DNA of 17,189 nt from Candidatus Odinarchaeia archaeon (lineage in GTDB: Archaea > Asgardarchaeota > Odinarchaeia > Odinarchaeales > Odinarchaeaceae): NCBI GenBank assembly GCA_029856525.1, contig JAHQXC010000023.1, positions 1-17,189 of the forward strand, written 5' to 3'. Below the pieces are notes generated by a model, which saw nothing but the letters and a program-made list of their open reading frames with translations, made no database searches and was not told where the DNA came from. Of the stretch, positions 328-6,758 are shown piece by piece. Made by a program: the position numbers and the translations under genes. Position 1 is the first letter of the stretch; each line of letters begins with the position of its first letter.

Positions 328-345
328 GCCGAAAATATTATATAC
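328..345 (+). promoter_or_regulatory. Putative BRE/TATA promoter for the trpB2 leader
   Basis: GCCGAAAA followed by TATTATATAC matches the archaeal BRE plus TATA arrangement. The predicted start is near 368-372. Confidence 0.55.
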
Positions 346-396
346 TTCTTTTATCAATTTATTTTTCAATCTTTCAGTAAGGGTGTATGCCTTGGA

Positions 397-534
397 ATGG
401 GATTCGCTTTAACCGTGCAGTGCGCGTTCAGATTTAACCCTTACTTGAAAGTAGACTCGTTTTTAAATATTTTTTCACCTAAGGCCTCTACTACTAGCTT
501 ATTCTGGGCTTGGCGTTGGTTAACGTGGCCTTAG
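397..534 (+). CDS. Putative Trp-rich leader peptide upstream of trpB2 (start uncertain: ATG397, GTG415 or TTG445)
   Basis: Frame +1 reads MGFALTVQCAFRFNPYLKVDSFLNIFSPKASTTSLFWAWRWLTWP*. TGG codons lie at 505, 511, 517 and 526, and the stop TAG is at 532-534, 65 nt before the trpB2 ATG. Confidence 0.55.
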   Translation: MGFALTVQCAFRFNPYLKVDSFLNIFSPKASTTSLFWAWRWLTWP

Positions 535-570
535 ACGCCACTGCAATGGTTAGCCTATCCCTCTAAAATA

Positions 571-577
571 TTTTTTT
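571..577 (+). terminator. T7 tract between the leader ORF and the trpB2 SD (candidate attenuator terminator)
   Basis: Seven consecutive T at 571-577, followed by SD GGAGGT at 588-593 and ATG at 600. Oligo-U tracts are the known archaeal termination signal. Confidence 0.4.
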
Positions 578-599
578 AAAAAATTATGGAGGTTAAATT

Positions 600-1907
600 A
601 TGTCTAATTTGAACGATGTGAAGGTTCAACTTGGATTGGATGAAATGCCTAGGAGATGGTATAATATATTAGCGGATATAAAATCAGAGTTTCCACCGTA
701 TCTTAATCCGGCGACGAAGGAGCCTATTCCAATGGAGGCTTTGATGAATCTGTTTCCTAAGGAGTGTGTGAAGCAAGAGTTTGCAGAGGATCGCTATATA
801 AACATTCCAGAGGAGCTTTTAGAGTATTACTATAGACTCGGCCGGCCTTCCCCATTATATAGGGCCAAGCGACTTGAACAAAGACTTAACACGCCTGCGA
901 TGATCTTCTTTAAGAGAGAGGATTTATCTCCAACTGGAAGTCATAAACCTAACACCGCGATAGCGCAAGCATACTATGCTGAGAAGGAGGGTGTTAAAAA
1001 TCTTACAACTGAGACAGGAGCCGGGCAGTGGGGGAGTGCTTTAGCCTACTCTTGTGCGATGGTGGGTATAAAATGCACTGTTTTCATGGTAAGATGCTCT
1101 TATAATCAGAAACCGTATCGGAAATATATTATGAAGCTTTTAGGAGCTGATGTTTACGCTTCTCCGAGTGATAAAACAGAGTACGGTCGAAGCCTTCTAT
1201 CTAAGGACCCGAATCACCCCGGCTCTCTCGGTATCGCTATCAGTGAGGCGATAGAGATGGCGGTTAAAAACCCTGGTACAAAGTACACTCTCGGCAGTGT
1301 TTTAAACTATGTTATATTGCATCAAACAATTATCGGTCAAGAACTTATAGAACAGATGAATAAACTTGATCTTACACCTGATTATTTAATAGGCTGTGTC
1401 GGCGGTGGCAGTAATTTCGCCGGCTTCAGTTTCCCGTATCTAGGTAAAATATTGAGAGGTGAATTAGCATCCCCTGAGGTTTTAGCGGTTGAACCTGTCG
1501 CCTGTCCGTCTCTTACAAAAGGTGAATATAGATATGACTTCGGTGACACAGCGAAAACAACACCCTTAATAAAAATGTATACTTTAGGATGCGAGTTTAT
1601 TCCACCATCAATTCATGCAGGCGGATTAAGATATCACGGCGCCGCTCCGACTGTGAGTCTGCTGAGAGATGAAGGGTTCATTAAAGCAGTAGCGTATTCA
1701 CAGGATCAGGTGTTTCAATGCGCTAAGCTTTTCGCTGAGTCGGAGGGTCTTATACCAGCCCCTGAGACCAGTCACGCGATATGTGCAGCTATAGATTTAG
1801 CGCGGGAGGCTAAAAAGAGAAATGAGCGGAAGGTGATCGTCTTCAACTACAGTGGCCACGGTTTACTCGATATTGAAGGGTATAGGACTGTTCTGAAACT
1901 TGACTAA
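600..1907 (+). CDS. trpB: Tryptophan synthase beta chain, TrpB2 type
   Basis: PLP lysine motif PTGSHKPNTA, plus TTETGAGQWG, YTLGSVLNYV, GCVGGGSNFAG, IHAGGLRYHG and PAPETSHA. The N-terminal extension (MPRRWYNI, LYRAKRLE) is typical of TrpB2. SD GGAGGT at 588-593. Confidence 0.96.
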   Translation: MSNLNDVKVQLGLDEMPRRWYNILADIKSEFPPYLNPATKEPIPMEALMNLFPKECVKQEFAEDRYINIPEELLEYYYRLGRPSPLYRAKRLEQRLNTPAMIFFKREDLSPTGSHKPNTAIAQAYYAEKEGVKNLTTETGAGQWGSALAYSCAMVGIKCTVFMVRCSYNQKPYRKYIMKLLGADVYASPSDKTEYGRSLLSKDPNHPGSLGIAISEAIEMAVKNPGTKYTLGSVLNYVILHQTIIGQELIEQMNKLDLTPDYLIGCVGGGSNFAGFSFPYLGKILRGELASPEVLAVEPVACPSLTKGEYRYDFGDTAKTTPLIKMYTLGCEFIPPSIHAGGLRYHGAAPTVSLLRDEGFIKAVAYSQDQVFQCAKLFAESEGLIPAPETSHAICAAIDLAREAKKRNERKVIVFNYSGHGLLDIEGYRTVLKLD

Positions 1908-1908
1908 C

Positions 1909-1920
1909 CCTCCTTTTTTT
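1909..1920 (+). terminator. Pyrimidine/T7 tract after trpB2
   Basis: CCCTCCTTTTTTT follows the trpB2 stop directly and overlaps the convergent tyrA stop codon. It resembles the tract after hppA. Confidence 0.55.
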
Positions 1921-2806
1921 AACTTTTCTCTAATAACCTGTATATTCTCTTATAAGATTTCTCCAAGATTTTATTATCGCCTTTAACAGGTGTTATATAA
2001 GTTTTCCAGAATTCTTCGAATTTACCTATATCCCTGTTAGCAACTATTTCAAATAATTTATTGAAGTATTCTTTTAAGTATTCTAAAACTTCAAGCGTAT
2101 AACTGTTATCGATTTGAATGTGAGCGTAAAGCTTCCATGATTCTGAGGGAAGACTTTCCGCTAACAGCTTTAATATTTTGAATGTTGTACCAGCGTAGTT
2201 TTCAATACTATTATTATTAGACTGGTGGCTGTTAACCACGGCTGTGAACAGCATGGTTACAAAATGCGGTAAAGCTAAAGTTAAAGCGACTTTCCGATCA
2301 TGTTCCCTGTAATCGCATTCAACTACATTCGCACCCTGTTTTTTTAGAAAATCTTTAACAGAGTTTAATAGACTCAGATTCCCGGGGTGAGGGATTAATA
2401 TTATATTTTTTCTTTTAAGAGTTTTAGCTCCAGGCCCGAACATTGGATGAGCTGAGAGGAGAGTAATGTTTTTTTCACTTAGATAATTAAAGTTTTCTTT
2501 AAGAAATTTTTCAACAGGTGTTTTAACAGAGGATAACTCTATTATAAAAGTGTTAGGTTTCAGGTATGGTAGGATTTCTTTTAAAACATTCACGGTCTCC
2601 TCTAATGGGACACTTACTATAACACCGTCTGCGATGCTTGCCGCTCTCTTATTATCTTGGTAGGCTTCCACTTTAACCTCTTCTATAAAAGACTTGTATT
2701 TCTCAAGGTTAGGGGTGGCTATAACTGTTTGTATTTTATGAGTGAGTAAGAATCTTGTAATCCAGGCTCCAAGCCTTCCAGCTCCTCCTAAAACCGCTAT
2801 TTTCAA
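1919..2806 (-). CDS. tyrA: Prephenate/arogenate dehydrogenase (TyrA family)
   Basis: Rossmann motif IAVLGGAGRLG, plus VIVSVP, ELSSVK, AHPMFGP and HDRKVA...LPH. TTG start with GGAGG SD, downstream of the chorismate mutase domain. Confidence 0.92.
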   Translation of the reverse strand: MKIAVLGGAGRLGAWITRFLLTHKIQTVIATPNLEKYKSFIEEVKVEAYQDNKRAASIADGVIVSVPLEETVNVLKEILPYLKPNTFIIELSSVKTPVEKFLKENFNYLSEKNITLLSAHPMFGPGAKTLKRKNIILIPHPGNLSLLNSVKDFLKKQGANVVECDYREHDRKVALTLALPHFVTMLFTAVVNSHQSNNNSIENYAGTTFKILKLLAESLPSESWKLYAHIQIDNSYTLEVLEYLKEYFNKLFEIVANRDIGKFEEFWKTYITPVKGDNKILEKSYKRIYRLLEKS

Positions 2807-2810
2807 AAAT

Positions 2811-4211
2811 TTAGCCTCCGCTAGGTTCCAGGCTCTTTTTTACAGTCTCCTCTTCGAATTTAACCGTTAACTTGATTAATTCTCTAACCAGGCTTGCAGC
2901 ATACTCTTCAGGTAAACCTATTCTCTTAGCGTAGGCTACAGCTTCACTTATCAGAGTGTTTTCTCTTTCAATATCTCTTAACTCGGTGTGCCTCTCAGCT
3001 TTTATTTTAGCGAGAACCTCAGCTGCATCTAATCTCCGCTTGAATAACTCTAAAATTCTTAAAGTGAACTCTTGAATCATGTTCCTCTGGTATTTTAAAT
3101 CTTTTTTATCAGAATAAACAGTCTGTCCGAAATAGCCTGCTTGCATCAATAAATCAGCTATTACAACGGCGGTGATAGCCTCTACAACAGGTACAGCTCT
3201 CGGAACTATGCATGGATCGTGCCGTCCTTTAATTTTTATAGTGGTCTGAGTTTTACTCTCTAAGTTGACTGTCTTCTGCTCTTTTGTTATTGAAGAAGTC
3301 GGCTTAAAAGCCACGTTGAAGATAACCGGCATACCTGTTGTTAAACCGCCTAGAACACCTCCAGAATTATTCGTCTCAGTTATAATTCTGCCGCTTTCAT
3401 CGTATTTAAACCAGTCATTGTGCTCAGACCCTTTCATTAAAGCTGCTTTAAACCCTGAACCGAATTCAATTCCTTTCACACCTGGTATAGAGAACACGGC
3501 TTTAGAGATCACGCTTTCTATTGAAGAGAATACAGGTTCCCCTACACCTGGAGGAAGCCCTATGATCATGCATTGAACCACTCCTCCTACACTATCCCCT
3601 TCACTTTTAGCGTCTAATATTTTTTTAATCATCTTCTCCGCTGCTTCTCCATCAGGAGAGTATACTGGATTCTTATCCCGGTTTATTTTAATCTCCTCTA
3701 ATTGGCCTGGTATCCTCGCTGTTTCACCGGCTATCTGATATGTGTAAGCTAAAACCTGTATTCTTTTAGTGGCTAAGAGCTGTTTAGCTACAGCGCCAGC
3801 CATTACAAAGCTTGCTGTAATTCTCCCGGAGAACTGGCCTCCCCCTCTATAATCGTTGAACCCGCTGTACTTGATATAAGCTGTTAGATCCGCGTGCCCC
3901 GGTCTAGGTTTTAATATAAACTCCTCGTAGTCTTCGCTTCTAACATTCTTATTCTCTATCATCATGCAGATAGGGGCGCCTGTTGTGAATCCGTTTAGCA
4001 CGCCTGAATATATTTGAACTTTATCTTCTTCTAAACGTGTAGTGGATATATCCGAGAACCCTGGTCTTCTTTTATCTAGCTCGGCTTGAATTATCTGCTC
4101 GCTTAACTTTAATCCAGCTGGAACGCCATCCACTACTACTCCTACCACTCTTCCATGGCTTTCCCCGAAAACAGTGATTCTAAAAATTTTTCCGAGACTG
4201 TTATCCGGCAT
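2811..4211 (-). CDS. aroC: Chorismate synthase fused to a C-terminal AroQ-type chorismate mutase domain
   Basis: AroC motifs GESHG, PRPGHAD, KGIEFG, TNNSGGVLGG and GRHDPCIVPRA. Residues about 368-466 align without gaps to the E. coli AroQ domain, including RDIERE versus RDIDRE. Confidence 0.93.
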   Translation of the reverse strand: MPDNSLGKIFRITVFGESHGRVVGVVVDGVPAGLKLSEQIIQAELDKRRPGFSDISTTRLEEDKVQIYSGVLNGFTTGAPICMMIENKNVRSEDYEEFILKPRPGHADLTAYIKYSGFNDYRGGGQFSGRITASFVMAGAVAKQLLATKRIQVLAYTYQIAGETARIPGQLEEIKINRDKNPVYSPDGEAAEKMIKKILDAKSEGDSVGGVVQCMIIGLPPGVGEPVFSSIESVISKAVFSIPGVKGIEFGSGFKAALMKGSEHNDWFKYDESGRIITETNNSGGVLGGLTTGMPVIFNVAFKPTSSITKEQKTVNLESKTQTTIKIKGRHDPCIVPRAVPVVEAITAVVIADLLMQAGYFGQTVYSDKKDLKYQRNMIQEFTLRILELFKRRLDAAEVLAKIKAERHTELRDIERENTLISEAVAYAKRIGLPEEYAASLVRELIKLTVKFEEETVKKSLEPSGG

Positions 4212-5541
4212 CCGTTTCCTCCTCTAATCTTACTCCTATGCTTCTAAGATCTTTAATAAAGTTAGGGTAAGAGTCACTGTATGTTTCTAATCCGTTAATT
4301 ACGCAGGGTTCACTTGCTTTAAGAGCGGCTACGCAGAGAGCCATGAAGATTCTATGATCTCCATGTGCGTTTAAACTGTTACAGCCGGAGACCACGCCTC
4401 CGCCTTTTATCGTTAAACCTGTTTTATTCTCCTTCACTCTAACACCCATTTTACTAAGCTCTTCCCGGATTGTTAGAAGTCGATTACTCTCCTTATACCT
4501 TACATGCTCAGCGCCATATAATATAGTCTCACCTTCAGCGTAGGCGGCTACCACAGCAAGCGCCGGTATAAGATCAGGGGTGTTACTGCAGTTGATTCTA
4601 GCTCCTCTAAGTTCCCCGCCGTGAACTGTGAGCTCCCCTCTCTCATAGTCTTCTTCTATTTCCACCCCCATTTTTCTAAGATCCTCTACTATTTTTCTAT
4701 CAGCGCTCACTGATTGAAAGTCAACGTTCACTATTTTCAAACTTGATTTCGTTATAGCAGCCGCTGCTAGTATGAAGGAGATTGAAGACCAGTCTCCTGG
4801 AACATTATACTCTTCAATATTATAGTGCTGGTTTCCCCGTATTATAAAATTTTTTAAATCTTTAGAAGCTTTTATGCTAACACCGCTTTGACTTACTATT
4901 TCAAGAGTCATTTTAATATAAGGCTTGGATTTCACAGGGGGTTTAATATGGATTATAGAGTCGCTGGTTGATTTCGGCAAGGCTAGAAGGAGGCTTGAAA
5001 TAAACTGGGAGCTGACGCTTCCTGAAATCCAAGTTTCACCTCCCAGCTTATCTGTTCCTGTTATAGCTAGAGGCGGGTATCCGTTTCGCTCAAGATACTC
5101 GCATCTCGCTCCTAACCTGTTTAAAGCATCCACTAAATCCGCCATAGGTCTTTTTCTAAGTTGAGGTGAACCTGTCAGCCGCGTCGTTCCTTTAGCTAGA
5201 GCGGCTATAGACATCATGAATCTGATAGTTGTCCCGGAGTTTTTAGCGTCTAATACCTTGCTCGGAGCTATTAAACTATGAGGAGGGATTATTTCAAGCA
5301 GTTTATCTTTTATCTTAAATTCTGCGCCAAATAATCTGCAGCAGTCTATTGTAGCGTTCACATCTCCGGCTAGAAGCGGATTATACACTTTCACACCGTT
5401 ATCAGATAGTAATCCTACTGTTAGTATCCGGTGAGTGTGGCTTTTAGACGGTGGAGCTTCAACACTCCCTTTTAAAAGGGTGGTTGGATGAACCGTTATT
5501 TTAACCATTTTCACGGGCTTATCTTTTAGACCGCCCTTCAC
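4201..5541 (-). CDS. aroA: EPSP synthase (start uncertain: GTG5541, GTG5514 or ATG5508)
   Basis: Motifs PPSKSHTHR, NSGTTIRF, SSQFISSLL, PDLIP, RYKESNR and GDHRIFM. The stop overlaps the aroC start by 11 nt. Confidence 0.95.
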   Translation of the reverse strand: MKGGLKDKPVKMVKITVHPTTLLKGSVEAPPSKSHTHRILTVGLLSDNGVKVYNPLLAGDVNATIDCCRLFGAEFKIKDKLLEIIPPHSLIAPSKVLDAKNSGTTIRFMMSIAALAKGTTRLTGSPQLRKRPMADLVDALNRLGARCEYLERNGYPPLAITGTDKLGGETWISGSVSSQFISSLLLALPKSTSDSIIHIKPPVKSKPYIKMTLEIVSQSGVSIKASKDLKNFIIRGNQHYNIEEYNVPGDWSSISFILAAAAITKSSLKIVNVDFQSVSADRKIVEDLRKMGVEIEEDYERGELTVHGGELRGARINCSNTPDLIPALAVVAAYAEGETILYGAEHVRYKESNRLLTIREELSKMGVRVKENKTGLTIKGGGVVSGCNSLNAHGDHRIFMALCVAALKASEPCVINGLETYSDSYPNFIKDLRSIGVRLEEETDAG

Positions 5542-5544
5542 CTC

Positions 5545-6441
5545 CTATAATACAGTAGCGGATGCTTTACTATTATTTATATTTACAATTTTAACTTCGC
5601 CTTTAAAACTACTCCAAGCTTTTTTAAGAGATTCAACTTCATCTTCATCTATTAACGCAGCTATAGTAGGTCCTGTTCCTGAAACACTTACACCTTTAGC
5701 ACCGGCTTCAAACGCTTTGAAAACAATATCCATCGGTGTATTATAACAGGCCCCGTATAGGAAGCCGTTTAAACTCATAGCGTCTTCCACTAACCCCTTC
5801 TTAACTAATTCTACTAAGTGAGGTATCAGCCCTCCTATAAGCTTTGTTTTATTAATCGTCTCTGGTGTGCGTGTTAACGGTTTAAACTCGGGGATAAAAA
5901 GAGCTACTTTCACTTTATCTGTGAATGGTTTCCTGAATATTATCTCCCGTTTAACATTATCTGTGAGAACTAAACCGCCGAAGTAGGATGCCGCTGCATC
6001 GTCGAACGCCCCTGTAACGGTTACCTTAGACTCTATAGCGGCTTCAACTCCTATTTTAATGATCTCTATATCTGAAGCGCCCACTCCAAGCGCTTTAACA
6101 GCCGCTAACACGACGGCGTTAGCCGCTGCACTGCTGCTTTTAAGACCTTTCCCTATTGGAATATTACTGTAAGTTACCACTTTAACTCCTTGATTCCTTA
6201 TATTATATTTTTCGAATATTTTTCGTATACAATTCTCTATTAATTTAGTCTCCGTGTTTTCAAACCCTGAAATCACATACTCATATTTCTCTTCTGGCAG
6301 TAACTTCACTTCCGCGCGCGTCCATAAATCTACTCCTATCGCAGAGCCTAAACCAGCCGCTATCGCGTTGATAACTGTTATAGCTCCATGTGCAACAGCT
6401 GCAGCTCTTCTATTCAATTCATTCACCGGTTTCCTGTTCAA
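5545..6441 (-). CDS. aroK: Archaeal shikimate kinase (GHMP kinase superfamily)
   Basis: HGAITVINAIAAGLG, GHMP ATP loop PIGKGLKSSSAAANA, TGAFDDAAASYFGG and SGTGP, in an aro context. TTG start after GAGGGG. Confidence 0.92.
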   Translation of the reverse strand: MNRKPVNELNRRAAAVAHGAITVINAIAAGLGSAIGVDLWTRAEVKLLPEEKYEYVISGFENTETKLIENCIRKIFEKYNIRNQGVKVVTYSNIPIGKGLKSSSAAANAVVLAAVKALGVGASDIEIIKIGVEAAIESKVTVTGAFDDAAASYFGGLVLTDNVKREIIFRKPFTDKVKVALFIPEFKPLTRTPETINKTKLIGGLIPHLVELVKKGLVEDAMSLNGFLYGACYNTPMDIVFKAFEAGAKGVSVSGTGPTIAALIDEDEVESLKKAWSSFKGEVKIVNINNSKASATVL

Positions 6442-6482
6442 CCCCTCTTTTTAAATTTAAGCGAGCTCGATTGTAATTTTTT

Positions 6483-6508
6483 AAGCATCAATGCTTTTTA
6501 TATTTTCG
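6483..6508 (-). promoter_or_regulatory. Putative aroK promoter with an adjoining palindrome
   Basis: The minus strand reads CGAAAA (6508-6503) then TATAAAAA (6502-6495), overlapped by the inverted repeat AAGCAT-tg-ATGCTT (6496-6483). Confidence 0.45.
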
Positions 6509-6529
6509 TATATTTACATGGAGATTCAC

Positions 6530-6738
6530 GTTTAAACTTTATCGGCGTGAAGTCCCCCTGTGAAAGCTGGGGAAGCTGAAAAGTATTTATAGTTTCCCGA
6601 TCTTTAAAAAGGATAGTGATGCGGTGCGGGGGGCAGCTCTGAGACGCATGTTGAAAGAGAGCCTCTACCGGTCGAAAACACCGGCACGCTTCATCATTGA
6701 AGCAGGAAACCTCATCCGATAGAGGGGGGGTAGTTCAT
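6530..6738 (+). mobile_element. Non-autonomous IS200/IS605-family miniature element (209 bp, no tnpA or tnpB)
   Basis: Left end: TCAC (6526-6529), then 19 nt later GAAG (6549-6552) at the foot of hairpin TCCCC..GGGGA (6553-6573). Right end: TGAAGCAGGAAA, an imperfect hairpin CCTCATCC-GATA-GAGGGGGGG (6710-6730), then TAGTTCAT. The pairs GAAG/TCAC and GAAA/TCAT follow the TnpA(Y1) guide-to-cleavage-site pairing rule known from IS608 and ISDra2. Confidence 0.72.
6575..6592 (+). promoter_or_regulatory. BRE/TATA promoter inside the mini-element
   Basis: GCTGAAAAG followed by TATTTATAG is a near-consensus archaeal promoter. The predicted start near 6613-6617 is where the GC-rich structured segment begins. 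Confidence 0.6.
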
Positions 6739-6758
6739 ACTTTTAATTTTAAGTCTGT
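6615..6758 (+). ncRNA. Putative TnpB omegaRNA (reRNA): scaffold about 6615-6738 plus a 3' guide from flanking DNA
   Basis: GC-rich segment of about 124 nt with hairpins GCTCT..AGAGC, CCGGT..ACCGG and GCTTCA-tcat-TGAAGC, then the right-end hairpin and TTCAT. The GAAGCAGGAA..GGGGTAGTTCA ending is characteristic of tnpB 3' ends. Boundaries are inferred. Confidence 0.6.

What the first reader, a model, noticed from the sequence alone, without database searches (positions are those of the whole stretch)
397..534. Four Trp codons in eight positions immediately upstream of trpB2
Seen: TGG GCT TGG CGT TGG TTA ACG TGG CCT TAG at 505-534, all in one frame that is open back to ATG397. TGG is a single, rare codon in AT-rich DNA, so this cluster directly before a tryptophan synthase gene is unlikely to be chance. 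Inference: a TrpL-like leader peptide. The weak point is the lack of an unambiguous start codon with a well-spaced SD.
Basis: partly seen in the sequence, partly recalled or inferred. Interest (0 to 1): 0.85.

Follow-up and report, generated by a model that had tools for sequence, protein, structure and literature searches.

The report
Tryptophan-codon leader ORF before Odinarchaeal trpB2
A small 45-codon reading frame that ends in four tryptophan codons, embedded in a conserved folded RNA, sits in front of the tryptophan-making gene trpB2 of this Asgard (Odinarchaeia) archaeon and its relatives; it looks like the ribosome-based amino-acid sensors ("attenuators") that are established only in bacteria.

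Summary
ATG397 to TAG534 is an open 45-codon frame with TGG at 505, 511, 517 and 526, 65 nt before trpB2 (600-1907). Only four such Trp clusters occur in all six frames of the 1.32-Mb genome.

The organism is an Odinarchaeia (Asgard) archaeon. In seven complete Odinarchaeial lineages (TrpB2 identity down to 77%) the ATG, the frame, the stop and all four Trp codons are kept. Peptide identity falls to 36% and shows no protein-like codon-position pattern. More distant relatives keep in-frame Trp clusters in rewritten sequence.

A 14-bp helix (371-384 with 437-451) covaries strongly. A long-range helix is plausible but not significant.

A second small ORF before the convergent shikimate operon keeps Trp, Tyr and Phe-Phe codons in all lineages. 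That fits codon-based sensing.

My best reading is a translated regulatory leader ORF that senses Trp-tRNA supply (0.72). How it switches trpB2 is unresolved: U7 termination or masking of the ribosome-binding site.

No expression data exist. I found no report of such a device in archaea. This scan has already noted the same element in other Odinarchaeia and other Asgard genomes.

The parts
329..344 (+). Archaeal-type promoter (BRE CCGAAA + TATA-like ATATTATATA); predicted transcript start near 368
   Evidence: Invariant or nearly so in all Odinarchaeial copies (alignments A1, A3). The start site is inferred from the usual archaeal TATA-to-start spacing and was not measured.
371..384 (+). 5' strand of helix H1 (CUUUCAGUAAGGGU), includes the SD-like GGGU(G)
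   Evidence: Pairs with 437-451. 95% of cells are paired, 8 of 14 pairs have changes on both sides, and 0 of 500 shuffles reach the observed values.
397..534 (+). Leader ORF, 45 codons, MGFALT...FWAWRWLTWP*
   Evidence: Frame, ATG, stop and Trp codons are conserved, while the peptide sequence otherwise drifts.
437..451 (+). 3' strand of helix H1 (ACCCUUAC-U-UGAAAG), inside leader codons 14-18
461..475 (+). Internal U5 and U6 tracts just 3' of H1 (possible pause or early termination site)
   Evidence: Sequence. T runs are present at this place in most copies. The function is inferred only.
505..528 (+). Four Trp codons (505, 511, 517, 526): the proposed sensing codons
   Evidence: Invariant in 7 of 7 complete copies. 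Genome-wide rarity shown.
525..541 (+). Hairpin GUGGC-N7-GCCAC with the fourth Trp codon in the stem and the stop codon UAG in the loop
   Evidence: Invariant in 7 copies. L106 has AUGGC/GCCAU, which is one compensated pair.
399..427 (+). 5' arm of the long-range helix LR (leader codons 1-10)
   Evidence: Pairs with 535-561 in the MFE fold and in RNAalifold. 79% of cells are paired, but covariation is not significant.
535..561 (+). 3' arm of LR, starting one base after the stop codon; contains the invariant GCCACUGCAAUGG
559..564 (+). CCCUCU, complementary to the trpB2 SD; its CCC is shared with the base of LR
   Evidence: Sequence. A clear copy is present in win, G001, G002, L104 and f16; it is weak or absent elsewhere.
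571..577 (+). U7 tract followed by an A run, between leader and SD (candidate archaeal oligo-U termination site)
   Evidence: A T5-T9 run is present in all nine Odinarchaeial copies. The function is inferred.
588..592 (+). Shine-Dalgarno GGAGG of trpB2
   Evidence: Conserved in all copies.
600..1907 (+). trpB2 (TrpB-like PLP-dependent enzyme, long form)
   Evidence: NCBIfam NF009057 at 684 bits and TIGR01415 at 642 bits.

Best explanation
The 397-534 frame is a translated regulatory leader ORF. It reports the supply of charged tRNA-Trp to the downstream trpB2 gene.

Proposed course of events:
- Transcription starts at the conserved BRE/TATA promoter (329-344), so leader and trpB2 share one RNA.
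- A ribosome starts at AUG397 and opens helix H1 as it passes.
- When Trp is plentiful it runs to UAG534. There it covers the 3' arm of the long-range helix (535-561), which begins one base after the stop.
- When Trp-tRNA is scarce it stalls on the four UGG codons (505-528), about 10-30 nt short of that arm. Segments 399-427 and 535-561 are then free to pair.
- The two folds give different outputs. My preferred version for this genus: the long-range helix ties up the CCC of CCCUCU (559-564) and leaves the trpB2 SD free, which is ON. Without it CCCUCU pairs with GGAGG, and/or RNA polymerase stops at the U7 tract (571-577), which is OFF.

Shown: the ORF, its conservation, the Trp codons, helix H1 and the layout. 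Inferred: co-transcription, translation, stalling and the switch itself.
For: 1. Rarity: this is one of only 4 such Trp clusters in the genome, and it lies 65 nt before trpB2.

2. Frame conservation across seven complete Odinarchaeial lineages:
- ATG, stop and 4 Trp codons are invariant.
- Lengths are 45-47 codons.
- Peptide identity falls to 36%.
- Frame 0 has no stops, against 2-6 in the other frames.
- The chance of an open frame from composition alone is 0.016-0.107 per lineage.

3. Variable sites by codon position are 24/32/25 of 42 columns. The product is not under protein-like selection, as expected for a leader peptide.

4. Divergent relatives keep in-frame Trp clusters at the end of a short frame before trpB2:
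- L106: ..IWPWH*
- L107: MIWPWRKLTWHW*
- f16: MGFALT...SWHPWHSWRWQ*
- f3: ..GWPWRGPWQ*
- f18: ..WASSWHW*
- f6..VCLGQWQWG..PV*
Of 78 non-Odinarchaeial trpB2 loci from the genome-contig collection (archaea and bacteria, with four Thorarchaeota loci among them), 3 show a cluster of at least 3 Trp in 10 residues. All three lie 130-474 nt upstream and not at the end of a frame.

5. A second leader ORF before the convergent shikimate operon (11635-11703, minus strand) keeps C-W-R plus Tyr plus Phe-Phe in eight lineages. One lineage has a YN to NY swap. The sensed codons match the pathway.

6. RNA structure:
- H1 covaries: 95% paired, 8 of 14 pairs doubly changed, 0 of 500 shuffles.
- H1 and the long-range helix exclude each other in folds.
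- In win and L103 the fold switches with the modelled ribosome position, and partly so in G001 and G002.

7. No TATA-like sequence is placed to give a trpB2 mRNA that includes its conserved SD. Read from the sequence, this argues for co-transcription.
Against: - No expression, ribosome or start-site data exist for this organism.
- The leader AUG has no well-spaced SD.
- The conserved peptide blocks are also conserved at synonymous sites, so RNA-level constraint explains part of the conservation.
- The long-range helix shows no significant covariation and is not predicted in L104 and L105.
- The modelled effect on SD accessibility appears only in three of seven copies.
- The U7/A-run could instead be a TATA box for a leaderless or short-leader trpB2 transcript. 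In that case the leader would be a separate unit.
- The genome's full trp operon (contig C99) has no such leader.
- At 45 codons the ORF is much longer than classical leaders.
Confidence: 0.72

Rival explanations
1. A structured cis-regulatory or stand-alone RNA, such as a riboswitch-like element or a binding site for a protein or for tRNA-Trp. Its UGG triplets and helices would be what is selected, and the open frame would be a by-product.
For: Block-wise nucleotide conservation includes synonymous sites. H1 covaries. GCCACUGCAAUGG is invariant and nearly palindromic. There is no third-position excess of substitutions. The block GUGU(A)UGCCUUGG..AAUGG is shared with family f6 but read in another frame.
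Against: The frame stays open in four largely independent lineages, although each has only a 2-10% chance of doing so by composition. All length changes are multiples of 3. Trp triplets stay in one frame with a stop just after them, even where the surrounding sequence is rewritten (L107, f16, f3, f18). The third UGG lies in a predicted loop, so pairing does not explain it. The shikimate leader keeps W, Y and F codons through a YN/NY swap. There is no Rfam match and no TRAP gene.
Confidence: 0.12
2. A functional small protein: a 45-residue peptide with a Trp-rich C-terminus, for example membrane-active or a partner of TrpB2. Its product would matter, not the act of translating it.
For: The ORF is conserved with an invariant M1, A10, Y16 and WAW-W--W tail. 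One source called the L105 copy as a gene.
Against: Variable sites are 24/32/25 by codon position. Nonsynonymous single-base differences outnumber synonymous ones in six of the seven pairs compared; win versus L103 has 7 synonymous and 6 nonsynonymous. The length ranges from 12 codons (L107) to 59-66 (f16, f3), and only the Trp tail is shared. A profile search of 5.8 billion proteins finds nothing beyond the L105 copy.
Confidence: 0.06
3. A TnaC-like arrest peptide. Free tryptophan, not tRNA charging, would stall the ribosome at the Pro-stop end of the leader and so change downstream expression.
For: Six of the nine Odinarchaeial copies end in W-P-stop. The stop codon sits in the loop of a conserved hairpin immediately before the 3' arm of a helix.
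Against: The terminal residues are not conserved: WL* in L105, HW* in L107, WQ* in f16 and f3. There is no TnaC-like W..D..P spacing. Induction by excess Trp makes little sense for a Trp-forming enzyme.
Confidence: 0.05
4. Chance ORF in an AT-rich spacer, or an independent short transcript unrelated to trpB2.
For: The U7 tract could end a short transcript, and the AT-rich spacer contains TATA-like runs.
Against: The element stays linked to trpB2 while the upstream neighbours differ. Rarity and conservation are as given above.
Confidence: 0.03

Closest known systems
Escherichia coli/Salmonella trpL ribosome-mediated transcription attenuator (Rfam RF00513 Trp_leader); likewise pheL, hisL, leuL, thrL
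   Same: A short ORF lies in the 5' leader of a Trp-pathway gene. Cognate codons cluster close to the ORF's end. The peptide sequence is otherwise free. RNA helices overlap the ORF and exclude one another. A U tract precedes the structural gene.
   Different: The host is an archaeon (Asgard). There is no sequence or covariance-model match. The ORF has 45 codons rather than 14. It has four spaced Trp codons rather than two adjacent ones. No GC hairpin abuts the U tract. Archaeal RNA polymerase and termination factors differ from bacterial ones. The regulated gene is a stand-alone trpB2, not the trp operon, which has no leader here.
Actinobacterial and other non-enteric leader-peptide attenuators predicted by comparative genomics (PMC1262725), and mycobacterial poly-Cys short ORFs acting as Cys-responsive attenuators (bioRxiv 10.1101/834739)
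   Same: These are regulatory codon runs in small upstream ORFs found by conservation. Some act on translation or by termination without a classical terminator.
   Different: All are bacterial. Their sequences and folds are unrelated to this one.
Trp-codon upstream ORFs before trpB2 in other Asgard archaea
   Same: Same gene, same position and the same Trp-cluster-then-stop ending. Family f16 shares the MGFALT start. Family f6 shares the nucleotide block GTGTGCCTTGG..AATGG.
   Different: The Odinarchaeial and f16 forms are long (45-59 codons) and enclose the RNA helices inside the ORF. The f6 form has about 17 codons. Covariance model R1 of the H1 domain finds only Odinarchaeial copies.
Bacillus TRAP / (G/U)AG-repeat trp leader, and T-box leaders
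   Same: These are Trp-responsive 5' leaders with triplet repeats or a specifier codon.
   Different: Only four UGG triplets occur here. Their spacings of 6, 6 and 9 nt stay in frame. The genome has no TRAP gene and there is no T-box match.

Membership tests
Bacterial trpL-type leader-peptide transcription attenuator (Rfam RF00513) | Short ORF in the 5' leader, same strand, directly upstream of a Trp-synthesis gene | tested here: met
   ORF 397-534; trpB2 600-1907
Bacterial trpL-type leader-peptide transcription attenuator (Rfam RF00513) | Clustered cognate (Trp) codons near the end of the leader ORF, conserved in relatives | tested here: met
   Four TGG within codons 37-44, invariant in 7 copies, with in-frame clusters in more distant ones
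Bacterial trpL-type leader-peptide transcription attenuator (Rfam RF00513) | Frame conserved while the peptide sequence is not | tested here: met
Bacterial trpL-type leader-peptide transcription attenuator (Rfam RF00513) | Mutually exclusive helices (pause, antiterminator, terminator) whose choice depends on ribosome position | tested here: inconclusive
   H1 is well supported. The long-range helix is not significant. A position-dependent switch is seen only in modelled folds of some copies.
Bacterial trpL-type leader-peptide transcription attenuator (Rfam RF00513) | Intrinsic terminator: GC-rich hairpin immediately followed by a U run before the structural gene | tested here: not met
   U7 lies at 571-577, but the nearest predicted helix ends at 561, 9 nt away. 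Archaeal oligo-U termination would not need a hairpin (established knowledge).
Bacterial trpL-type leader-peptide transcription attenuator (Rfam RF00513) | Match to the family's covariance model | tested here: not met
   No hit at the gathering threshold or at E up to 10
Bacterial trpL-type leader-peptide transcription attenuator (Rfam RF00513) | Expression responds to charged tRNA-Trp through leader translation | not testable with these tools
   No RNA or ribosome data are available
Asgard trpB2 Trp-codon upstream ORF (class noted earlier by this scan) | Short frame ending in a Trp cluster 60-190 nt upstream of trpB2, within a conserved leader | tested here: met
   Odinarchaeial copies; families f16, f3, f18 and f6
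Asgard trpB2 Trp-codon upstream ORF (class noted earlier by this scan) | Detectable sequence relationship between family versions | tested here: met
   f16 shares ATGGGATTTGCTTTAAC (MGFALT). f6 shares GTGTGCCTTGG..AATGG. The H1 model itself does not reach them.
TRAP-regulated trp leader | 9-11 (G/U)AG repeats with 2-3 nt spacers, and a TRAP (TrpBP) gene in the genome | tested here: not met
   Four UGG only. PF02081 was not found in the 93%-complete genome.
T-box leader | Match to the T-box model with specifier loop and T-box sequence | tested here: not met
TnaC-type arrest peptide | Conserved Trp, Asp and C-terminal Pro-stop at fixed spacing | tested here: not met
   The ends vary: WP*, WL*, HW*, WQ*

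The most novel reading that the evidence does not exclude
Asgard archaea, the closest prokaryotic relatives of eukaryotes, use a family of ribosome-mediated, codon-matched leader ORFs to control aromatic amino-acid synthesis. The frame before trpB2 carries Trp codons only. The frame before the shikimate operon carries Trp, Tyr and Phe. This would be the first amino-acid-sensing leader-peptide attenuation system in Archaea. It would work with archaeal RNA polymerase and oligo-U or factor-dependent termination and/or masking of the ribosome-binding site, and it arose independently of, or long before, the bacterial attenuators.
Probability: 0.6. Interest if true: 0.85.

Novelty: new variant of a known kind. 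Interest (0 to 1): 0.78.

Why it matters
Leader-peptide attenuation is a textbook example of gene control that depends on coupled transcription and translation. As far as I could find, it has been demonstrated only in bacteria (searches found no archaeal case; one tool paper, PMC10219788, merely states in general terms that uORFs act in archaea).

A conserved, codon-matched pair of leader ORFs in Asgard archaea would:
- show that the same logic operates with an archaeal, eukaryote-like transcription machinery;
- give a concrete system for studying coupling and termination in archaea;
- provide a simple marker (Trp-cluster uORF plus trpB2) for annotating regulation in uncultured lineages.

It also bears on whether eukaryotic uORF control has prokaryotic antecedents.

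Tried and rejected
- tRNA or split tRNA: ARAGORN finds none in the window.
- Known RNA families: none at gathering thresholds. Only two chance hits (E 0.47 and 7.8) appear in a permissive scan of 300-640.
- Repeat or mobile element: the stretch is single copy in the genome.
- Sister family f2 of the same order: trpB2 there follows a divergent ACT-domain regulator gene and has no Trp ORF.
- TrpB2 relatives at 68% identity (L159-L161): other gene contexts, no leader.
- Metagenome scan with the 5' block GGTGTATNSCTTGGAATGG: 50 hits, all chance.
- Protein search with the leader-peptide profile: only the L105 copy itself.
- Expression: no RNA holder listed among public runs.
- Whole-leader folds are not more stable than shuffles (z -1.55 and -1.21).
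- Modelled SD accessibility as a read-out works for win, G001 and G002 but not for G003 or L103-L105. I do not rely on it.
- Long-range helix covariation is not significant.
- A Trp leader before the real trp operon on contig C99: none.
- The three other Trp clusters in the genome are off-frame noise.

Full report
OBSERVATION. ATG is at 397. TGG GCT TGG CGT TGG TTA ACG TGG CCT TAG runs from 505 to 534. All lie in one frame that is open from 325, and ATG397 is its first start codon. The product is 45 residues, MGFALT...FWAWRWLTWP.

The next gene (600-1907, SD GGAGG at 588-592) is a long-form TrpB-like PLP enzyme, that is TrpB2 (NCBIfam NF009057 at 684 bits, TIGR01415 at 642 bits). It is convergent with a nine-gene operon on the minus strand: ADH synthase, DHQ synthase II, aroD, asd, aroE, shikimate kinase, aroA, an aroC-chorismate mutase fusion and tyrA.

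The genome (1.32 Mb, 38.5% GC) has TGG at 0.85% of six-frame codon positions. Windows of eight codons with four or more TGG are expected 0.48 times and occur four times. The other three are off-frame noise. The stretch is single copy. It is not a tRNA and matches no Rfam family.

WHO CARRIES IT. Record titles of same-genus loci name Candidatus Odinarchaeota, which are Asgard archaea. Three same-genus genomes keep the region at 83-89% nucleotide identity. From a protein search with TrpB2 and contig look-ups I obtained more distant Odinarchaeia:
- L103 (TrpB2 85% identical), L104 (78%) and L105 (77%);
- L106 (75%, contig cut 130 nt upstream);
- L107/L108 (71%).

In the seven complete copies the ATG, the stop and all four Trp codons are invariant. 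Lengths are 45, 45, 46, 46, 46, 47 and 47 codons, so every net indel is a multiple of three. Peptide identity to the window falls to 36%. Frame 0 has no stop in any copy, while the other two frames have 2-6 each. The chance of an open frame from base composition alone is 0.016-0.107 per copy. L106 ends ..IWPWH*. L107 has a 12-codon ORF, MIWPWRKLTWHW*, in rewritten sequence.

Where the element is not found:
- The sister family of the same order has a divergent ACT-domain regulator gene instead.
- TrpB2 relatives at 68% identity have other contexts.
- Among 78 non-Odinarchaeial trpB2 loci from the genome-contig collection (archaea and bacteria, four Thorarchaeota among them), only three have a cluster of at least 3 Trp in 10 residues. 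All three lie 130-474 nt upstream and not at the end of a frame.

BEYOND ODINARCHAEIA. I sampled 150 genomes of the phylum and read 26 trpB2 loci of other families.
- Family f16 has a 59-codon upstream ORF. It starts with the same MGFALT (same nucleotides ATGGGATTTGCTTTAAC) and ends SWHPWHSWRWQ*, 83-90 nt before trpB2.
- Family f3 has a 66-codon ORF ending GWPWRGPWQ*.
- Family f18 has a 58-codon ORF ending WCICWASSWHW*.
- Family f6 has about 17 codons, M(I/V)(R/S)VCLGQWQWG..PV*. Its coding block GTGTGCCTTGG..AATGG is the same nucleotide block that lies in the Odinarchaeial 5' UTR, but it is read in another frame.

So the Trp-cluster-then-stop ending before trpB2 recurs across Asgard families while almost everything else changes. 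Earlier notes of this scan had reported the same element in other Odinarchaeia genomes and Trp uORFs in other Asgard lineages. The checks above are my own.

PROTEIN OR SENSOR? In a codon-aware alignment, variable sites number 24, 32 and 25 at codon positions 1, 2 and 3, out of 42 ungapped columns. Nonsynonymous single-base differences outnumber synonymous ones in six of the seven pairs compared; win versus L103 has 7 synonymous and 6 nonsynonymous. The product is therefore not under protein-like purifying selection. What is kept is the act of reading: start, frame, Trp codons and stop. Several nucleotide blocks are also conserved at synonymous sites, which points to RNA constraints.

A profile of the peptides finds only the L105 copy among 5.8 billion proteins.

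A SECOND, MATCHING LEADER. The small ORF is kept in the three congeners and in four distant Odinarchaeial contigs. The versions are:
- MVGCWRYNFFGEYS..
- ..GCWRYNFFGEAF..
- ..GCWRYHFFGRFT..
- ..GCWRYHFFEEYS..
- MREVECWRNYFFSSWNERN*

Cys-Trp-Arg, one Tyr and Phe-Phe are always present. One lineage has Tyr and Asn swapped. The rest is free. Codons for Trp only precede the Trp enzyme, and codons for Trp, Tyr and Phe precede the common aromatic pathway. Codon-based sensing predicts exactly this, and an RNA-only reading does not explain it easily.

RNA STRUCTURE.
- H1. The 5' UTR segment 371-384 pairs with 437-451, inside leader codons 14-18. This gives 14 bp with one bulge. All eight Odinarchaeial copies can form it. 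A covariance model of this domain recovers every lineage (E from 3e-33 to 2e-3). On the resulting alignment 95% of cells pair, 8 of 14 pairs carry changes on both sides, none of 500 shuffles reaches this, and slid controls pair at 27-52%. One caveat: the alignment is fitted to the model.
- LR. A long-range helix joins 399-427 (codons 1-10) to 535-561, which begins one base after the stop. It is the MFE and RNAalifold solution. Its inner part (UGCAGUG-GCGU with ACGC-CACUGCA) is complementary in five of seven copies. Covariation is not significant: 79% paired, with 52 of 500 shuffles as high.
- Stop-codon hairpin. GUGGC-N7-GCCAC (525-541) holds the fourth Trp codon in its stem and the stop codon in its loop. 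It is invariant in seven copies and reads AUGGC/GCCAU in L106.

H1 and LR cannot both form as nested structures. LR and a CCCUCU:GGAGG pairing share 559-561.

In partition-function folds I made about 30 nt unpairable to mimic a ribosome. With the ribosome at Trp codons 1-3, LR stays formed. With it at the stop codon, LR is abolished, and H1 forms in win and L103. In win, G001 and G002 the trpB2 SD is less paired in the first state: 0.28-0.39 unpaired against 0.00-0.05 at 37 C. The direction is the same at 65 C, where the contrast is weak in G001 (0.63 against 0.44). G003 and L103-L105 do not show this. A T5-T9 run followed by an A run lies between leader and SD in all nine copies.

MECHANISM. 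I commit to the following, with the steps marked.
- Shown: a conserved promoter; a conserved ORF with four Trp codons just before its stop; a covarying helix that the ribosome must open; a stop codon abutting a conserved segment that can pair far upstream; a U tract; and a conserved SD.
- Inferred: one transcript from about 368 through trpB2, since no TATA-like sequence is placed to give an mRNA that includes the SD.
- Inferred: translation starts at AUG397.
- Inferred: when Trp-tRNA is scarce, the ribosome stalls at 505-528 and leaves 535-561 free to pair with 399-427.
- Inferred: when supply is good, the ribosome reaches UAG534 and covers that arm, so the other fold forms (H1, the stop-codon hairpin and a free CCCUCU).
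- Inferred output: either the SD is masked by CCCUCU, or termination at U7 is changed. H1 with the U5/U6 tracts behind it (461-475) may play the part of the bacterial 1:2 pause hairpin, holding the polymerase until a ribosome arrives.

I put 0.72 on 'translated Trp-sensing leader ORF acting in cis on trpB2'. I put only about 0.3 on the particular switch described.

COMPARISON WITH KNOWN SYSTEMS. The logic is that of E. coli trpL and its relatives. Membership in that family fails on the covariance model and on the terminator hairpin, and the host machinery is archaeal. The element is not a TRAP site: there are four triplets only, they stay in frame, and the genome has no TRAP gene. It is not a T-box. 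It is not TnaC-like, because the ends vary.

Full-text searches found no archaeal amino-acid-sensing leader peptide. PMC10219788 only says in general terms that uORFs act in archaea.

CONTEXT WORTH NOTING. Unlike its three congeners, this genome carries a complete trpEGDCFBA operon on contig C99. The congeners lack TrpA; one of them is a single-contig assembly, 98% complete. The flanks of the operon are syntenic and lie only about 400-570 nt apart in the congeners, next to an intron-containing tRNA-Glu. That operon has no Trp-rich upstream ORF. In this genome, therefore, the leader controls only the stand-alone trpB2.

LIMITS. There are no RNA or ribosome data. Eight to nine related sequences are few for covariation tests. 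Thermodynamic folds of AU-rich RNA at 37 or 65 C are crude for a thermophile.

Noticed in passing
window 11635-11703 (minus strand), leader region 11503-11760: A 22-codon ORF (TTG start, MVGCWRYNFFGEYS...) lies between a conserved promoter and the first gene of the shikimate operon. Cys-Trp-Arg, Tyr and Phe-Phe codons are kept in three congeners and four distant Odinarchaeial contigs, with a Tyr/Asn swap in one, while the rest drifts. It is a candidate aromatic (Trp+Tyr+Phe) leader peptide.
   Followed up: yes
own genome contig C99 (locus L169) 1561-8555: A complete trpEGDCFBA operon sits between flanks that are only about 400-570 nt apart in three same-genus genomes, which lack TrpA. It was either gained here or lost there. 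It lies next to a tRNA-Glu(CUC) gene with an intron (C99 1425-1540). There is no Trp-rich upstream ORF.
   Followed up: partly
L177, L181, L182, L184, L187 (Asgard family f6), about 250-330 nt upstream of trpB2: Repeated TGTACA-like hexamers (for example ATGTACA..TGTACATCAATGTAC) lie just upstream of the promoter and uORF. From memory they resemble the TRP boxes bound by the archaeal regulator TrpY. Protein-based and uORF-based control may be combined there.
   Followed up: no
window 538-549; L106 about 72-83: CCACTGCAATGG directly after the leader stop is nearly palindromic, and it is a perfect 12-nt palindrome (CCATTGCAATGG) in L106. It could be a DNA operator or an RNA dimerisation site rather than, or as well as, a helix arm.
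   Followed up: no
window 381-400 versus L182/L187 uORF: The block GTGT(A)TGCCTTGG..AATGG is shared between the Odinarchaeial 5' UTR/start region and the coding part of the short f6 uORF (VCLGQW), but in a different reading frame. This suggests an RNA-level element older than either ORF version.
   Followed up: partly
window 6442-6946: A 505-nt gap with no ORF of 90 aa or more interrupts the shikimate operon between shikimate kinase and aroE. I did not examine it.
   Followed up: no
L019-L021 (family f2, same order): trpB2 there is preceded by a divergently transcribed ACT-domain regulator-like gene instead of a leader ORF. This is a different regulatory solution in the sister family.
   Followed up: no
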